Translations under genes and position numbers: made by a program
Notes under the pieces: generated by a model
What the model was told of the DNA's origin: nothing
Seen by the model: the letters and a program-made list of their open reading frames with translations, nothing else
Databases searched by the model: none
From: Escherichia coli
GTDB taxonomy: Bacteria; Pseudomonadota; Gammaproteobacteria; Enterobacterales; Enterobacteriaceae
Strand: one strand, 5' to 3'
Assembly (NCBI RefSeq): GCF_003334405.1
Contig: NZ_QOWM01000003.1
DNA length: 64,000 nt
Shown: positions 27,898-49,980 of the stretch, one piece after another
Position numbering within the stretch: the first letter of the stretch is position 1
Layout of the letters: each line of letters opens with the position of its first letter

Positions 27898-30260
<2,363 letters not shown>

Positions 30261-32455: not shown

Positions 32456-32791
32456 ATGGGGCTGGTAATCAAAGCCGCGCTCGGTGCGCTGGTAGTGCTG
32501 TTGATTGGTGTTTTAGCAAAAACGAAAAATTATTATATCGCCGGGCTGATTCCACTTTTCCCGACCTTTGCGCTTATCGCGCATTATATTGTTGCCAGCG
32601 AACGCGGCATTGAAGCCTTACGCGCAACCATCATTTTTAGTATGTGGTCGATTATTCCCTATTTTGTTTACCTGGTGTCGCTGTGGTATTTCACCGGAAT
32701 GATGCGCTTGCCCGCCGCTTTTGTTGGTTCTGTTGCGTGTTGGGGGATAAGCGCATGGGTGTTGATTATATGCTGGATAAAGCTGCATTAA
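32456..32791 (+). CDS. ydgC: GlpM-family inner membrane protein YdgC
   Basis: 111-aa hydrophobic ORF recognised as YdgC; 3' end overlaps folM by 4 nt (convergent). Confidence 0.88.
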   Translation: MGLVIKAALGALVVLLIGVLAKTKNYYIAGLIPLFPTFALIAHYIVASERGIEALRATIIFSMWSIIPYFVYLVSLWYFTGMMRLPAAFVGSVACWGISAWVLIICWIKLH

Positions 32792-45921: not shown

Positions 45922-47142
45922 GTGGTTGCTGAAAACCAGCCTGGGCACATTGATCAAATAAAGCAGACCAACGCGGGCGCGGTTTATCGCCTGATTGATC
46001 AGCTTGGTCCAGTCTCGCGTATCGATCTTTCCCGTCTGGCGCAACTGGCTCCTGCCAGTATCACTAAAATTGTCCGTGAGATGCTCGAAGCACACCTGGT
46101 GCAAGAGCTGGAAATCAAAGAAGCGGGGAACCGTGGCCGTCCGGCGGTGGGGCTGGTGGTTGAAACTGAAGCCTGGCACTATCTTTCTCTGCGCATTAGT
46201 CGCGGGGAGATTTTCCTTGCTCTGCGCGATCTGAGCAGCAAACTGGTGGTGGAAGAGTCGCAGGAACTGGCGTTAAAAGATGACTTGCCATTGCTGGATC
46301 GTATTATTTCCCATATCGATCAGTTTTTTATCCGCCACCAGAAAAAACTTGAGCGTCTAACTTCGATTGCCATAACCTTGCCGGGAATTATTGATACGGA
46401 AAATGGTATTGTACATCGCATGCCGTTCTACGAGGATGTAAAAGAGATGCCGCTCGGCGAGGCGCTGGAGCAGCATACCGGCGTTCCGGTTTATATTCAG
46501 CATGATATCAGCGCATGGACGATGGCAGAGGCCTTGTTTGGTGCCTCACGCGGGGCGCGCGATGTGATTCAGGTGGTTATCGATCACAACGTGGGGGCGG
46601 GCGTCATTACCGATGGTCATCTGCTACACGCAGGCAGCAGTAGTCTCGTGGAAATAGGCCACACACAGGTCGACCCGTATGGGAAACGCTGTTATTGCGG
46701 GAATCACGGCTGCCTCGAAACCATCGCCAGCGTGGACAGTATTCTTGAGCTGGCACAGCTGCGTCTTAATCAATCCATGAGCTCGATGTTACATGGACAA
46801 CCGTTAACCGTGGACTCATTGTGTCAGGCGGCATTGCGCGGCGATCTACTGGCAAAAGACATCATTACCGGGGTGGGCGCGCATGTCGGGCGCATTCTTG
46901 CCATCATGGTGAATTTATTTAACCCACAAAAAATACTGATTGGCTCACCGTTAAGTAAAGCGGCAGATATCCTCTTCCCGGTCATCTCAGACAGCATCCG
47001 TCAGCAGGCCCTTCCTGCGTATAGTCAGCACATCAGCGTTGAGAGTACTCAGTTTTCTAACCAGGGCACGATGGCAGGCGCTGCACTGGTAAAAGACGCG
47101 ATGTATAACGGTTCTTTGTTGATTCGTCTGTTGCAGGGTTAA
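45922..47142 (+). CDS. mlc: ROK-family global regulator Mlc (DgsA)
   Basis: 406-aa ORF with GTG start (gtggttgctgaaaacc); MVAENQPGHIDQIKQTNAGAVYRLIDQLGPVSRIDLSRLAQLAP... recognised as Mlc; C-terminal ROK Zn motif (C-x-C-G-x2-G-C). Confidence 0.95.
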   Translation: MVAENQPGHIDQIKQTNAGAVYRLIDQLGPVSRIDLSRLAQLAPASITKIVREMLEAHLVQELEIKEAGNRGRPAVGLVVETEAWHYLSLRISRGEIFLALRDLSSKLVVEESQELALKDDLPLLDRIISHIDQFFIRHQKKLERLTSIAITLPGIIDTENGIVHRMPFYEDVKEMPLGEALEQHTGVPVYIQHDISAWTMAEALFGASRGARDVIQVVIDHNVGAGVITDGHLLHAGSSSLVEIGHTQVDPYGKRCYCGNHGCLETIASVDSILELAQLRLNQSMSSMLHGQPLTVDSLCQAALRGDLLAKDIITGVGAHVGRILAIMVNLFNPQKILIGSPLSKAADILFPVISDSIRQQALPAYSQHISVESTQFSNQGTMAGAALVKDAMYNGSLLIRLLQG

Positions 47143-47266
47143 CATTTTTTAACTGTTCTACCAAAATTTGCGCTATCTCAATTTGGGCCAGGAAAGCATA
47201 ACTTAGACTTTCAAGGTTAATTATTTTCCTGGTTTATATTTGTGAAGCATAACGGTGGAGTTAGTG

Positions 47267-47962
47267 ATGCTGAAGCGTTTCTTTATTACCGGTACAGACA
47301 CTTCTGTAGGGAAAACGGTGGTTTCCCGCGCATTGCTACAAGCGTTAGCCTCCCAGGGAAAAACGGTTGCGGGATATAAACCCGTAGCGAAGGGGAGCAA
47401 AGAGACACCCGAAGGGCTGCGTAATAAAGATGCCCTGGTGTTGCAGAGTGTTTCAACCATCGAACTGCCTTATGAAGCAGTTAATCCTATCGCGTTAAGC
47501 GAAGAAGAAAGTAGCGTGGCGCACAGTTGCCCAATCAATTACACCCTCATTTCAAACGGCCTGGCAAACCTGACCGAAAAAGTCGATCATGTCGTGGTAG
47601 AAGGGACTGGCGGCTGGCGCAGTCTGATGAATGATTTGCGTCCACTCTCTGAATGGGTAGTGCAGGAACAACTGCCGGTGTTGATGGTTGTCGGTATTCA
47701 GGAAGGTTGCATTAACCATGCACTGCTAACAGCTCAGGCGATCGCCAACGACGGGCTGCCGCTCATTGGCTGGGTGGCTAACCGAATCAACCCAGGACTG
47801 GCGCATTATGCGGAAATCATTGATGTGCTGGGTAAAAAACTTCCGGCACCGCTCATTGGTGAACTGCCTTATCTGCCGCGCGCCGAACAGCGTGAACTGG
47901 GGCAATACATCCGCTTAGCTATGCTGCGCAGTGTGCTGGCGGTAGATAGAGTCACGGTGTAA
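47267..47962 (+). CDS. ynfK: Dethiobiotin synthetase paralogue (BioD2/YnfK)
   Basis: ATG at 47267 (GGTGGAG Shine-Dalgarno); [20 protein letters not shown]... P-loop; 231 aa. Confidence 0.9.
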
Positions 47963-49171
47963 CGTCCGCGAAATTACCGACGCAATTACGCAGGCAATCA
48001 ATAAACCGGGGAGTAGCTGATACTCCCCGGTCATTTCACATATCATCAACGTCGACATAATCGGCGCGTGCGTGGTCGCCGCCAACAGTGTCGCCATCCC
48101 GGTCAATCCGAGTAAAAGTGTAATTTCTTCGCCATCAGGGAACCATAATCCCAGGCTACGACCATACAACATGCCAATGGCAAGACCGATAAATAGCGTC
48201 GGTGTAAAGACCCCACCGGGTGCGCCGGAACCGCTACTCGCCAGCACGGCACACAGTTTACAAAGGAAGATCCCGGCAATGATCATTAACAGTGGTGGGG
48301 CGGTTAAAAAGGATTGTACGGTGCTATAGCCGTTGCCCCACACTGCAGGTGTGAACAGGGAAAGCAGACCCACGATCAACCCGCCTAGTGCCAGTTGCCA
48401 GGGCGGCGCAAGTTTGAGACTCACAAATCCACGATGACAGGCGTTCATTAACGTTAACAACAGTGGTCCGCACAGACCTGCCAGCACACCTGTACTGATA
48501 ATCAGCGCATAGTCACGAGCCTGAACCGTCACTGAGAGTTGTACGTTGTAGAGTAACGCGTCGCTATGATTAATCAGATTGCTAACCAGCAATGCCACGA
48601 CGGCGGAAATAATCACCGGGCCGAGAGAGGCCAACATCATAGTGCCAAACAGCACTTCGGCTATAAATAAACTGCCAGCAAGCGGGGCACGATAGGCCGC
48701 AGCCATTCCCGCCGCGGCCCCACAGGCGATCCATAATTTCCACCCCTGGCGTGGCGTAAAACGTTGGGCAAAACAGGAGGCGGCAAGGGCAGCTAAAAGA
48801 ATCATCGCACCTTCGCGACCAATTGCACTGCCGCTGGTTACTACCAGCAGAGAGGCAAGCGATTTAACCAGGCTTGCTGCGTAATCGAACTGTCCATCGG
48901 TTTGCAACGCTTCCATATAATCGGTCGGCGCATGAGGGCGTTGTTGGGTAAATTTCTGCCAGCCCATCAGCAACAAACCCGCCGCCAGTCCGCCGAGCGC
49001 CGGAGTTAGCAACCGTCGCCAGGGGGAAAGGTTTGTCGCTGCATTGACCAGACTGCCGGAGTCATTATTGAGGAACAACCACTCCAGTAGCAGCATCGCA
49101 TGACGAAACCCGGCAACGGCAAAGGCCGCGAGAATACCGACGACTGTTGCGATAAGCAGACGGCGGAACAT
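47915..49171 (-). CDS. clcB: Voltage-gated ClC-type chloride channel ClcB (YnfJ)
   Basis: Trimmed to [33 protein letters not shown]... (418 aa; complement of cat at 49169-49171); ClC signatures GSGAPGG and GREG. Confidence 0.9.
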
Positions 49172-49365
49172 AGTGCGCAGATCCGGATAGATGTGTAGAT
49201 GATGCATGAGCAGAAATGGGCAATGAAACACGGGCGACTATTTTGCGGCAAAAGAGGCCAGCCGCAAAAGCAGTGCGTGCTTTAAGAGATAAAAAAACGT
49301 GACACTGTAACCTATTATTGCCGGATTGCGCGTAATCGTCACCATCCGGCAATATTACGGTGATC

Positions 49366-49980
49366 CTATCGAAACAGCGGTTTAACCGCGACAGGAATTA
49401 ACAGTTGTGATTGCCATTGCGCCAGCGTTAAGCGAGCCAGTTCACCCAGTGCACGGTAGAAAGGGTGTTCTGCTTTTTCGATAAAAACATCAAGAAAACG
49501 TGTTGACCACGGAAAAAGGTGCCATGCCAGCAATTCTTCGCATTCTGTCTGGCGACCATTCTCCGCCAACCACGCAGCCATCAACAGCAGTGAACCAAAA
49601 TGATCTTCCGGTTCGTTTTGCTTCATTTCAAACTGAATGCCTTTCTCGCGCATCCACTGACGAAGTGCCAATGTTGAATCGCCAAACAGCACAGATTCGC
49701 GATCCAGCCAGACCGACCCCCACGGCGGAGACGGCAGTGCCCACGGGCCGACAAACAAACGCTGCCAGGCCTGGGCGTGAGTCTCTTCACACTGTGTCTG
49801 AAAAGCCGTCACCAGCGGCGCTAATGACGCTTCTGGTAGAGGCCACTGAGTTTCCCAGCCGTCACTGGTGAGTACCGCAACCAGAGGTGCGGCTTCCGCA
49901 CTCTCTGGAGCGTAATAAAACAGCGCGCCCAACACGCGCGCCGCGACAGAAAAATTATCTTGCTGTGAAAAATGGGTCAT
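49366..49980 (-). CDS. dmsD: Tat proofreading chaperone DmsD (redox enzyme maturation protein)
   Basis: Trimmed to MTHFSQQDNFSVAARVLGALFYYAPESAEA... (204 aa); last gene of the ynfEFGH-dmsD cluster. Confidence 0.93.
   Translation of the reverse strand: MTHFSQQDNFSVAARVLGALFYYAPESAEAAPLVAVLTSDGWETQWPLPEASLAPLVTAFQTQCEETHAQAWQRLFVGPWALPSPPWGSVWLDRESVLFGDSTLALRQWMREKGIQFEMKQNEPEDHFGSLLLMAAWLAENGRQTECEELLAWHLFPWSTRFLDVFIEKAEHPFYRALGELARLTLAQWQSQLLIPVAVKPLFR

What the first reader, a model, noticed from the sequence alone, without database searches (positions are those of the whole stretch)
47915..47962. 48-bp convergent 3' overlap between ynfK (bioD2) and clcB
The last 16 codons of ynfK (+) and of clcB (-) are encoded on opposite strands of the same 48 bp. 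Each transcript must therefore extend into the other gene, giving scope for mutual antisense or transcriptional interference and constraining both C-termini evolutionarily. Similar 4-bp convergent overlaps occur at fumC/tus and ydgC/folM.
Basis: seen in the sequence. Interest (0 to 1): 0.2.

Follow-up and report, generated by a model that had tools for sequence, protein, structure and literature searches.

The report
Conserved ynfK–clcB convergent gene overlap
Two E. coli genes on opposite strands (ynfK/bidA, a spare biotin-pathway enzyme, and clcB, a chloride transporter) really do share their last 48 bases; this is already annotated, old and an ordinary kind of feature, but comparison across species shows how each gene limits the other's evolution and suggests that ynfK's transcript-end hairpin is written into clcB's codons.

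Summary
ynfK/bidA (+, 47267-47962) and clcB (-, 47915-49207) overlap by 48 bp, codon on codon: each stop codon is the complement of a Leu codon in the other gene. RefSeq annotates the same overlap in K-12 and in divergent E. coli strains. Across 61 enterobacterial species with an intact clcB the overlap is always present (27-66 bp, 48 in 32 species), and ynfK always stops at codon 232. The length itself is not unusual: this antisense phase stays open for 15 or more codons about 67% of the time. ClcB's side includes its conserved central-gate tyrosine (Tyr422). YnfK's side is mostly an 11-residue extension that BioD lacks. Mutual constraint is shown: ynfK never uses TGA where clcB is present (0/61) but does in 8 of 12 species that lost clcB, and the codon-position variability pattern flips after clcB loss. 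A hairpin 43-69 nt past the ynfK stop, built from clcB codons 393-401, has frozen synonymous sites and one compensatory pair, and survives clcB decay. It is probably ynfK's 3'-end stem-loop, acting with Rho-dependent termination reported at this site. No regulatory antisense role is shown. Low interest; the overlap is already known.

The parts
47267..47962 (+). ynfK (renamed bidA in K-12): BioD-paralogue dethiobiotin synthetase, 231 aa plus stop
   Evidence: ORF; TIGR00347 135.3 bits; PGAP coordinates in identical strain; residues 1-220 align end to end with E. coli BioD; directly FNR-activated according to PMC3688515
47915..49207 (-). clcB: ClC-type chloride transporter, 430 aa with the PGAP start. 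The K-12 annotation starts 12 codons later (418 aa, window 49171). The open frame itself begins at a GTG at 49231.
   Evidence: ORF; NF002437 874.6 bits; annotation
47915..47962 (.). 48-bp convergent coding overlap in codon-on-codon antisense register
   Evidence: conserved at 27-66 bp in 61 of 61 species with an intact clcB
47960..47962 (.). ynfK stop TAA, which is the complement of the ClcB Leu416 codon TTA. The Leu is invariant, so the ynfK stop is restricted to TAA or TAG.
   Evidence: TAA 48, TAG 13, TGA 0 with clcB present; TGA 8, TAG 2, TAA 2 without clcB; Fisher p = 3.7e-8
47915..47917 (.). clcB stop TAA, which is the complement of the YnfK Leu217 codon TTA. This stop is movable between lineages.
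   Evidence: clcB stop gives overlaps of 27, 39, 45, 48 or 66 bp in different genera
47942..47944 (-). ClcB Tyr422 codon (TAC, opposite YnfK Val226 GTA). It is the counterpart of the ClC central-gate tyrosine and sets the 27-bp minimum overlap.
   Evidence: ClcB ...DSIY422 aligns with Salmonella ClcA ...KPLY445 and Synechocystis ClC ...KPIY437; S[IV]Y is kept in all distant ClcB-like proteins examined; GTA in 55 of 55 species
47927..47959 (+). YnfK C-terminal extension, residues 221-231 ([11 protein letters not shown]), with no counterpart in BioD, laid over the conserved 3' end of clcB
   Evidence: BioD ends at ...YINLALL, matching YnfK ...YIRLAML220; its variability follows the clcB frame when clcB is present and the ynfK frame when clcB is absent
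48005..48031 (+). GC-rich hairpin (10-11 bp stem, 5-nt loop) 43-69 nt past the ynfK stop, formed by clcB codons Thr393-Gly401 (TGEYQLLPG). Proposed 3'-end stem-loop of the ynfK transcript.
   Evidence: Predicted stem about -21 kcal/mol, z = -3.6 (+ strand) and -4.4 (- strand); frozen synonymous sites ACC 58/58 and CCC 58/58, p = 0.0019; compensatory pair C-G 36 / G-C 17, 0 of 500 shuffles reach the covariation score; retained after clcB loss or decay
47972..47972 (+). Published peak of a Rho-termination region on the ynfK-sense strand (K-12 1666514, minus strand of the record)
   Evidence: Adams et al. 2021, PMC7815308, supplementary file 2: coverage 85 to 11 without bicyclomycin, 292 to 159 with it, Rho score 4.2, p = 1.5e-6; coordinate mapping. 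Resolution is coarse (800-nt windows).

Best explanation
This is a genuine, old and obligate convergent coding overlap, an ordinary kind of feature that is unusually well documented here. SHOWN: ynfK and clcB share 48 bp in codon-on-codon antisense register, and each stop codon is the complement of a Leu codon of the partner gene. ClcB's share of the overlap contains ancestral, conserved ClC sequence (Leu416 to Tyr422, the central-gate tyrosine). YnfK's share is mainly an 11-residue tail that BioD lacks. The two genes constrain each other. With clcB present, the last ~10 ynfK codons vary in the pattern expected of the clcB frame, and ynfK cannot use TGA. Where clcB has been deleted, the ynfK frame takes over and TGA becomes the commonest stop. 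INFERRED (origin): the bioD paralogue came to lie tail to tail against clcB, lost a BioD-like stop after ...LAML, and read on over the existing 3' end of clcB to the first antisense stop, which is TAA/TAG opposite Leu416 TTA/CTA. Such a run is likely by chance in this phase. Dual coding then froze the arrangement. INFERRED (transcription): ynfK mRNA must enter clcB as antisense RNA. It is ended there by Rho-dependent termination (published bicyclomycin data). The conserved hairpin 43-69 nt past the stop, written in clcB's synonymous sites, serves as the stable 3'-end stem-loop: a protective or pausing element, at best a weak intrinsic terminator because coding for Cys-Glu-Met-Thr prevents a U-tract. 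In two lineages that lost clcB, the same or a near-identical stem is followed by a T7-T8 run, i.e. it has become a canonical intrinsic terminator.
For: Overlap and annotation. Conservation: ynfK is 231 aa with its stop at the same place in all 80 species loci, and the overlap is 27-66 bp in 61 of 61 intact pairs. Ancestry of each side: YnfK 1-220 = BioD 1-224 end to end; ClcB Tyr422 = ClcA Tyr445; distant ClcB-like proteins keep S[IV]Y, and many short forms end 1-15 residues later. Mutual constraint: entropy by ynfK codon position is 0.20/0.04/1.17 in ynfK-only sequence and 1.15/0.03/0.52 in clcB-only sequence; the last 10 ynfK codons follow the clcB pattern and flip in the 12 clcB-less species; stop-codon usage, Fisher p = 3.7e-8. 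Chance length: P about 0.67. Hairpin: of 137 conserved four-fold codon columns only 3 never vary, and 2 of them are stem codons (Thr393 ACC, and Pro400 CCC, a codon not favoured at the other conserved Pro columns), p = 0.0019. Stem 93% paired against 15-51% when partners are slid; covariation reached by 0 of 500 shuffles. Core 8 pairs are 98.4% paired as + strand RNA against 93.5% as - strand RNA. The stem is kept in all 4 clcB pseudogene remnants and in 5 of 12 clcB-less species, with T8/T7 runs in L015/L018. Rho-termination region at the ynfK stop. Framework from Dar and Sorek 2018: Rho-dependent transcripts end at U-less protective stem-loops that can become intrinsic terminators by gaining U.
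Against: No precisely mapped ynfK 3' end was found: none is listed in the Term-seq tables of PMC7815308, and the other datasets were not held as text. The reported Rho-score peak lies about 33 nt upstream of the hairpin rather than downstream of it, though it comes from 800-nt windows. On the + strand the hairpin is followed by only 3 T in 8 nt, so it fails the terminator criterion there, while the - strand passes in E. coli. Over all 10 pairs the two strands pair equally well (93.2% against 93.9%), and the loop-proximal pair favours the - strand (27 U.G). In most clcB-less or remnant loci a convergent gene (osmV-like or dmsD) could also use the hairpin, so retention does not settle the strand. 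The compensatory change has few independent origins (roughly two clades). The origin scenario is inferred; no YnfK outgroup lacking the extension was examined.
Confidence: 0.75

Rival explanations
1. Annotation or sequencing artefact: one of the two genes really ends earlier, so there is no true overlap.
For: Pallejà et al. 2008 found many long overlaps to be misannotations, including 3'-end extensions in convergent pairs.
Against: The overlap is below their 60-bp warning threshold. The ynfK stop is at the identical codon in 80 species. clcB cannot end before Tyr422, which lies 6 codons inside ynfK and is conserved throughout the ClC family. The sequence is identical in K-12 and thousands of complete genomes. 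Both frames show coding-type substitution patterns.
Confidence: 0.02
2. The overlap is kept because it is a regulatory device (excludon-like, or transcriptional interference): anaerobic, FNR-driven ynfK transcription represses clcB, or the reverse, through complementary 3' ends or polymerase collision.
For: The two mRNAs must be complementary over at least 48 nt. ynfK has its own FNR-activated promoter. Ju et al. 2019 and Wang et al. 2022 show that convergent E. coli genes commonly interact at their 3' ends. With Rho inhibited, read-through into clcB rises markedly.
Against: Dual coding alone explains the conservation, since ClcB's conserved Tyr lies inside ynfK. Rho normally cuts ynfK-sense coverage about 8-fold at the stop (85 to 11). 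clcB was lost independently in several lineages while ynfK kept the same length and tail. No expression data link the two genes, and a literature search found only one unrelated paper naming both.
Confidence: 0.12
3. The hairpin is not a ynfK element. It acts on the clcB mRNA (pause, stability, premature termination when untranslated), or as a DNA palindrome for a protein, or is only a by-product of the conserved TG(E/Q)Y..LPG peptide.
For: Overall pairing is as good on the - strand (93.9%) as on the + strand (93.2%), and the loop-proximal pair keeps a U.G only on the - strand. In E. coli the - strand copy is followed by TTTATTGATT and passes the terminator scan. The peptide itself is highly conserved.
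Against: The peptide does not dictate the codons: ACC 58/58 and CCC 58/58, while neighbouring four-fold sites vary freely. In the core 8 pairs the tolerated non-Watson-Crick variants are G.U on the + strand about 26 times against about 2 on the - strand, and ACU or CCU variants that would keep - strand wobbles never occur. The - strand T-tract is not conserved (Salmonella has CTGCTG). The stem persists in clcB pseudogenes with broken frames, and in Trabulsiella, where no sizeable convergent ORF follows. Tolerance of G.U argues for RNA rather than a DNA site. A terminator 87 nt before a gene's own stop would be counterproductive.
Confidence: 0.2

Closest known systems
Conserved convergent (tail-to-tail) overlapping gene pairs of prokaryotes (Rogozin et al. 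2002 as cited in PMC2478687; Pallejà et al. 2008, PMC2478687; Huvet and Stumpf 2014, PMC4161906)
   Same: Two real genes whose 3' ends overlap on opposite strands, created by movement of stop codons and conserved between species. E. coli has 75 such pairs, and the convergent orientation is the only one that tolerates long overlaps.
   Different: At 48 bp it is much longer than the two other convergent overlaps in this window, both the 4-bp TTAA type. It is conserved across a whole family rather than only in 'very close species'. One side carries a functionally key residue (ClC central tyrosine), which makes the overlap obligate.
Protective 3' stem-loops of Rho-dependent transcripts (Dar and Sorek 2018, PMC6061677)
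   Same: A stable GC-rich stem-loop without a U-tract downstream of a gene whose read-through is bicyclomycin-sensitive. The predicted evolutionary switch to an intrinsic terminator by gain of U is seen in L015 and L018.
   Different: Here the stem-loop is not in a 3' UTR spacer but inside the coding sequence of the convergent neighbour, maintained through that gene's synonymous sites. No steady-state 3' end has been mapped to it.
Bidirectional hairpin terminators between convergent E. coli genes (Ju et al. 2019; Wang et al. 2022 preprint, doi 10.1101/2022.10.23.513370)
   Same: A palindromic hairpin between convergent transcription units that can form in both transcripts and pause polymerases arriving from either side. 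In clcB-less species the retained hairpin lies between the stops of ynfK and an osmV-like gene, in that geometry.
   Different: In E. coli the hairpin lies upstream of the clcB stop, so clcB transcription must pass through it. It cannot be clcB's terminator.
Excludons and cis-antisense regulation by overlapping transcripts (Listeria; from my own knowledge, not checked here)
   Same: Transcripts of oppositely oriented neighbouring genes are complementary and could repress each other.
   Different: Excludons involve long antisense transcripts that span the neighbouring gene and have shown regulatory effects. Here the read-through is short and curtailed by Rho, and no regulatory effect is known.

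Membership tests
Convergent overlapping gene pair | Both ORFs are genuine protein-coding genes | tested here: met
   BioD TIGR00347 135.3 against cut-off 83.3; ClcB NF002437 874.6 against 425; coding-type substitution patterns in both frames
Convergent overlapping gene pair | Both stop codons confirmed by orthologues (no artificial 3' extension) | tested here: met
   ynfK stop identical in 80 loci; clcB stop 1-14 codons after the conserved Tyr422 in 61 species
Convergent overlapping gene pair | [quoted passage not shown] | tested here: met
   61 of 61 species with an intact clcB, about 25 genera
ClC channel/transporter (ClcB) | Conserved central tyrosine after the ...EMTG.Y..LP helix | tested here: met
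   Tyr422 aligns with Tyr445 of Salmonella ClcA and Tyr437 of Synechocystis ClC. That this residue is the central-gate tyrosine is from established knowledge of ClC-ec1.
Dethiobiotin synthetase (BioD) | Full-length similarity to E. coli BioD | tested here: met
   YnfK 1-220 aligns with BioD 1-224, E = 2.9e-65. Enzyme activity is not testable here.
Intrinsic (Rho-independent) terminator | Stable GC-rich stem-loop | tested here: met
   Stem about -21 kcal/mol, z = -3.6 on the + strand
Intrinsic (Rho-independent) terminator | U-rich tract directly after the stem on the terminated (ynfK-sense) strand | tested here: not met
   TCATTTCA has 3-4 T in 8 and fails the scan on the + strand. The feature is met only in clcB-less L015 (T8) and L018 (T7).
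Rho-dependent terminator with protective stem-loop (Dar and Sorek 2018) | Bicyclomycin-sensitive read-through at the gene end | tested here: met
   Published table: Rho score 4.2, p = 1.5e-6 at K-12 1666514, classed primary for ynfK. This is a literature datum, not a new experiment.
Rho-dependent terminator with protective stem-loop (Dar and Sorek 2018) | Steady-state RNA 3' end immediately downstream of the stem-loop | not testable with these tools
   No ynfK or clcB 3' end in the Term-seq tables that could be read; other supplements are not held as text
Rho-dependent terminator with protective stem-loop (Dar and Sorek 2018) | C-over-G enrichment downstream (rut-like) | tested here: inconclusive
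   29 C against 22 G in the 100 nt after the hairpin, a mild excess
Bidirectional terminator between convergent genes (Ju et al. 2019) | Hairpin lies beyond the stop codons of both genes, in the zone where both transcripts end | tested here: not met
   The hairpin at 48005-48031 is 87 nt upstream of the clcB stop at 47915-47917. The feature is met only in clcB-less species.
Excludon / regulatory antisense pair | Demonstrated effect of one transcript on expression of the opposite gene | not tested
   No expression data found

The most novel reading that the evidence does not exclude
The stem-loop at 48005-48031 is a selected 3'-end element of the ynfK transcript that has been 'written' for the whole history of the Enterobacteriaceae into the synonymous sites, and one co-varying amino-acid site, of the neighbouring clcB gene. 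It outlives clcB when that gene decays, and it turns into a canonical U-tract intrinsic terminator once clcB's coding constraint is gone. That would be a traceable natural example of a Rho-dependent to intrinsic terminator switch, and of one gene's non-coding signal shaping another gene's codon choice.
Probability: 0.5. Interest if true: 0.4.

Novelty: already known. Interest (0 to 1): 0.2.

Why it matters
The overlap itself changes nothing: it is in every E. coli annotation and belongs to a well-described class. Its value is as a clean worked example. Because clcB has been lost independently in several enterobacterial lineages, the locus is a natural experiment showing how an antisense partner restricts stop-codon choice and codon-position variability, and how that restriction lifts when the partner is lost. 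There is a practical consequence. Mutations, deletions or recoding of the last 16 codons of either gene (for example Keio-type knockouts, or the recurrent ynfK pseudogenisation in Shigella sonnei) also alter the other gene, and 'silent' recoding of clcB codons 393-401 may disturb the end of the ynfK transcript. If the hairpin role is confirmed, it would also show that synonymous sites of one gene can be held by a neighbour's termination signal.

Tried and rejected
1. Idea that juxtaposition with ynfK truncated an originally longer, CBS-domain ClcB. Rejected: many distant short ClcB-like proteins also end 1-15 residues after the conserved tyrosine.

2. First tally suggesting a clean strand asymmetry of wobble pairs. 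Tempered: the formal count shows equal pairing over all 10 pairs (93.2% against 93.9%). Only the core 8 pairs favour the + strand, and the loop-proximal pair favours the - strand.

3. The '240-bp overlap' in Superficieibacter electus (L066). This was an artefact of extending from the BLAST end point. The true first stop gives 27 bp.

4. Search for a reciprocal clcB terminator embedded in ynfK. No synonymous-constraint outliers outside the overlap, and no stable structure in the 96 nt after the clcB stop (z = +1.07).

5. Rfam scan of 47000-49500. Only a sub-threshold chance match (SR6 antitoxin, 23 bits against 55, E = 0.59).

6. Search for a precisely mapped ynfK 3' end. The term search of the PMC7815308 supplements hit only the Rho-region table, with nothing for ynfK or clcB in its Term-seq 3'-end tables. 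The PMC12207403 supplements held no mention of either gene. PMC9023263, PMC6061677, PMC12259150 and PMC11092163 have no supplements held as text.

7. Literature on the pair. Only one paper names both genes, and it is unrelated. A search for BidA/BioD returned noise. The functional ynfK paper I recall (Cronan laboratory, anaerobic expression) could not be found in the library and is therefore not cited as evidence.

8. Whether 48 bp is statistically surprising. It is not.

Full report
OBSERVATION. The window is Escherichia coli: the 2.1-kb query matches 5,416 of 5,426 complete genomes over at least 80% of its length, at 97.8% identity or better in the strains sampled down the ranking. It is 99.9% identical to K-12 MG1655 over the two genes. 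A + strand ORF ends with TAA at 47960-47962. A - strand ORF ends with TAA (TTA on the + strand) at 47915-47917. NCBIfam identifies them as dethiobiotin synthase (TIGR00347, 135.3 bits, cut-off 83.3) and ClcB (NF002437, 874.6 bits, cut-off 425). RefSeq/PGAP annotates exactly this 48-bp overlap in an identical strain and in two of the most divergent strains. It does so in K-12 too, where ynfK is now called bidA (clcB 1665315..1666571, bidA 1666524..1667219).

GEOMETRY AND CHANCE. The two frames are in codon-on-codon antisense register. YnfK codon position 1 faces ClcB position 3, 2 faces 2, and 3 faces 1. The ynfK stop TAA is the complement of the ClcB Leu416 codon TTA. The clcB stop TAA is the complement of the YnfK Leu217 codon TTA. 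In this phase an antisense stop arises only opposite TTA, CTA or TCA codons, which make up 2.7% of codons in this window's long ORFs. The frame therefore stays open for 15 or more codons with probability about 0.67 (median run 28 codons). The length of the overlap needs no special explanation.

CONSERVATION. A scan of one genome per species returned 80 loci from about 25 enterobacterial genera. ynfK is 231 codons with its stop at the same position in all of them. Among 61 species with an intact clcB, the overlap is 48 bp in 32, 45 bp in 14 (Salmonella, Citrobacter), 66 bp in 11 (Enterobacter, Leclercia), 39 bp in 1 and 27 bp in 3. It is never shorter than 27 bp (which corrects an artefactual '240'). 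Twelve species have no detectable clcB, and four keep only a decayed 3' remnant. In most of the clcB-less species checked, the convergent neighbour is an osmV-like ABC ATPase with CBS domains, so clcB was deleted from between ynfK and that gene.

WHAT EACH GENE CONTRIBUTES. YnfK residues 1-220 align end to end with E. coli BioD, which stops at ...YINLALL where YnfK has ...YIRLAML. Residues 221-231 ([11 protein letters not shown]) are an extension without counterpart in BioD. ClcB ...[10 protein letters not shown]422 aligns with Salmonella ClcA ...AQFLGGKPLY445 and with Synechocystis ClC ...ALGGKPIY437. By established knowledge of ClC-ec1, this is the central-gate tyrosine. All distant ClcB-like proteins examined keep S[IV]Y. 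Long forms continue for about 140 residues, and many short forms end 1-15 residues after the tyrosine, as ClcB does. So ClcB's Leu416-Tyr422 is ancestral sequence. The overlap is obligate because this tyrosine's codon (47942-47944) lies six codons inside ynfK. The new element is YnfK's tail. The most economical origin is that the bioD paralogue lost a BioD-like stop and read on to the first antisense stop, opposite Leu416. This is an inference. I rejected my earlier idea that ynfK truncated clcB.

MUTUAL CONSTRAINT (SHOWN). Mean per-site entropy by ynfK codon position is 0.20/0.04/1.17 in ynfK-only sequence and 1.15/0.03/0.52 in clcB-only sequence. The second is the mirror-image pattern expected for the clcB frame. 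The last ten ynfK codons follow the clcB pattern when clcB is present. In the 12 clcB-less species the pattern flips: ynfK third positions become free (1.3-1.9 bits), while Asp227, Arg228 and the terminal Ala stay conserved. So ClcB dominates the constraint, but the YnfK tail is also under selection of its own. ynfK ends in TAA (48) or TAG (13) and never TGA (0) where clcB is intact. It ends in TGA (8), TAG (2) or TAA (2) where clcB is gone (Fisher p = 3.7e-8). TGA would change Leu416 to Ser. Within ynfK, the only frozen non-preferred codons (Val226 GTA in 55/55, Ala231 GCG in 53/54) lie in the overlap. The clcB stop, by contrast, moves between lineages, which fits a weakly constrained extreme C-terminus.

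TRANSCRIPT ENDS. ynfK has its own FNR-activated promoter (Myers et al. 2013, PMC3688515). Adams et al. 2021 (PMC7815308, supplementary file 2) list a Rho-termination region whose peak is at K-12 1666514 on the ynfK-sense strand. That is 10 nt past the ynfK stop (window 47972), and it is classed 'primary ynfK, antisense clcB'. Coverage falls from 85 to 11 without bicyclomycin and from 292 to 159 with it (Rho score 4.2, p = 1.5e-6). The windows are 800 nt, so the position is approximate. No Term-seq 3' end is listed for either gene.

THE HAIRPIN. A hairpin lies 43-69 nt past the ynfK stop: ACCGGGGAGTA-GCTGA-TACTCCCCGGT (48005-48031; stem about -21 kcal/mol; z = -3.6 and -4.4 for the two strands). 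It is made of clcB codons Thr393-Gly401 (TGEYQLLPG). It is conserved beyond what the protein requires. Of 137 conserved four-fold codon columns of clcB in 58 species, only three never vary at the third position, and two of them are stem codons: Thr393 ACC (58/58) and Pro400 CCC (58/58). Other conserved Pro columns prefer CCG. Gly394 is GGG in 48 and GGA in 9. The hypergeometric p for this placement is 0.0019. One pair shows a compensatory double change (C-G 36, G-C 17 distinct sequences), linking Gln CAG with Leu CTG and Glu GAG with Leu CTC. The stem is 93% paired against 15-51% when partners are slid, and 0 of 500 shuffles reach the observed covariation score.

WHICH STRAND. The evidence is moderate, not decisive. 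The core eight pairs are 98.4% paired as + strand RNA and 93.5% as - strand RNA. The variants that occur are G.U on the + strand, and ACU or CCU variants that would keep - strand wobbles never occur. However, the loop-proximal pair has 27 U.G on the - strand, so over all ten pairs the strands tie (93.2% against 93.9%). The - strand T-tract seen in E. coli (TTTATTGATT) is not conserved; Salmonella has CTGCTG there. The stem persists in all four clcB pseudogene remnants and in five of twelve clcB-less species. In L015 and L018 the same or a near-identical stem is followed by T8 and T7, which makes a canonical intrinsic terminator. In Trabulsiella it persists with no sizeable convergent ORF downstream.

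FIT TO KNOWN MECHANISMS. This matches Dar and Sorek 2018 (PMC6061677). They report that Rho-dependent E. coli transcripts end at U-less stem-loops that protect against 3'-5' exonucleases, and that such structures can become intrinsic terminators by gaining U. My best reading is that the hairpin is the 3'-end stem-loop of the ynfK transcript, maintained in clcB's synonymous sites. Because it fails the U-tract criterion on the + strand, I do not file it as an intrinsic terminator. Because it lies upstream of the clcB stop, it is not a bidirectional terminator in the sense of Ju et al. 2019 and Wang et al. 2022. No terminator for clcB was found inside ynfK. Rfam has no match.

COMPARISON AND NOVELTY. 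Convergent overlaps are a known class: 75 pairs in E. coli (PMC4161906). They are the only orientation in which long overlaps are real, though Pallejà et al. found most such cases conserved only in very close species (PMC2478687). This instance is already annotated, so the finding as stated is already known. To my knowledge, and after a search that found one unrelated paper naming both genes, three things are not described: the family-wide conservation, the natural experiment provided by clcB loss, and the embedded hairpin. These are new details of known kinds, not a new kind of system. No evidence supports a regulatory antisense function. It remains possible but is not needed to explain the conservation.

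VERDICT. The feature is ordinary and already annotated, with low interest (0.2). The most novel reading not excluded is the hairpin as a ynfK 3'-end element that outlives clcB and converts to an intrinsic terminator. I give that a probability of about 0.5 and moderate interest if true.

Noticed in passing
window 29298-29301 and 32788-32791: The fumC/tus and ydgC/folM convergent pairs each overlap by the 4-bp palindrome TTAA, in which the two stop codons share bases. This is the minimal form of a convergent overlap.
   Followed up: yes
window 49171-49231 (- strand): The clcB start is annotated inconsistently. The open frame begins at a GTG at 49231 (438 aa), PGAP uses 49207 (430 aa), and K-12 NP_416109.2 is 418 aa (start at about 49171). 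The true start was not examined.
   Followed up: no
window 48004-48032, - strand: In E. coli the hairpin read on the clcB-sense strand is followed by TTTATTGATT and passes the terminator scan, although it lies 87 nt before clcB's own stop. The T-tract (Leu TTA TTG codons) is not conserved in Salmonella or Citrobacter. It is unknown whether it causes premature clcB termination when translation is poor.
   Followed up: partly
L005 (E. coli strain E69), L066, L073: In these three genomes clcB has a stop one codon after Tyr422, which shortens ClcB by 7 residues and the overlap to 27 bp. The last 7 ClcB residues are therefore probably dispensable.
   Followed up: partly
L013, L023, L051, L054; L015, L018, L034, L041, L045, L047, L057, L061, L062, L075, L077, L080: clcB has been lost (12 species) or reduced to a 3' pseudogene remnant (4 species) several times in the Enterobacteriaceae. 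ynfK is retained every time with unchanged length.
   Followed up: yes
hit H1 (NZ_CM135132.3, E. coli K99S): This strain has an IS1A-family insertion within the clcB/bioD stretch (the match is split into two pieces about 0.8 kb apart). Which gene is disrupted was not determined.
   Followed up: no
L038 and L014: L038 is titled 'Chryseobacterium sp. 18061' but carries a typical enterobacterial mlc-ynfK-clcB locus. L014, titled 'uncultured Raoultella sp.', is identical to Citrobacter braakii (L016) in the ~160-bp junction stretch and both protein tails that were compared. These are probably mislabelled or contaminated assemblies.
   Followed up: no
literature (PMC6811581): ynfK is recurrently pseudogenised (8 independent events) and shows only non-synonymous SNPs in a Shigella sonnei lineage. 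Any such mutation in the last 16 codons would also change ClcB.
   Followed up: no
literature (PMC12844172): A genomic SELEX peak for the regulator HusR (YnfL) is listed at K-12 position 1,664,668, flanked by clcB and dgsA (mlc) with ynfK shown as the site. The genome version and the exact location relative to the overlap were not resolved.
   Followed up: no
window 48002-48061, + strand: A sub-threshold Rfam match to the Bacillus SR6 antitoxin (23 bits against a gathering score of 55, E = 0.59). It coincides with the hairpin and is best regarded as chance.
   Followed up: yes
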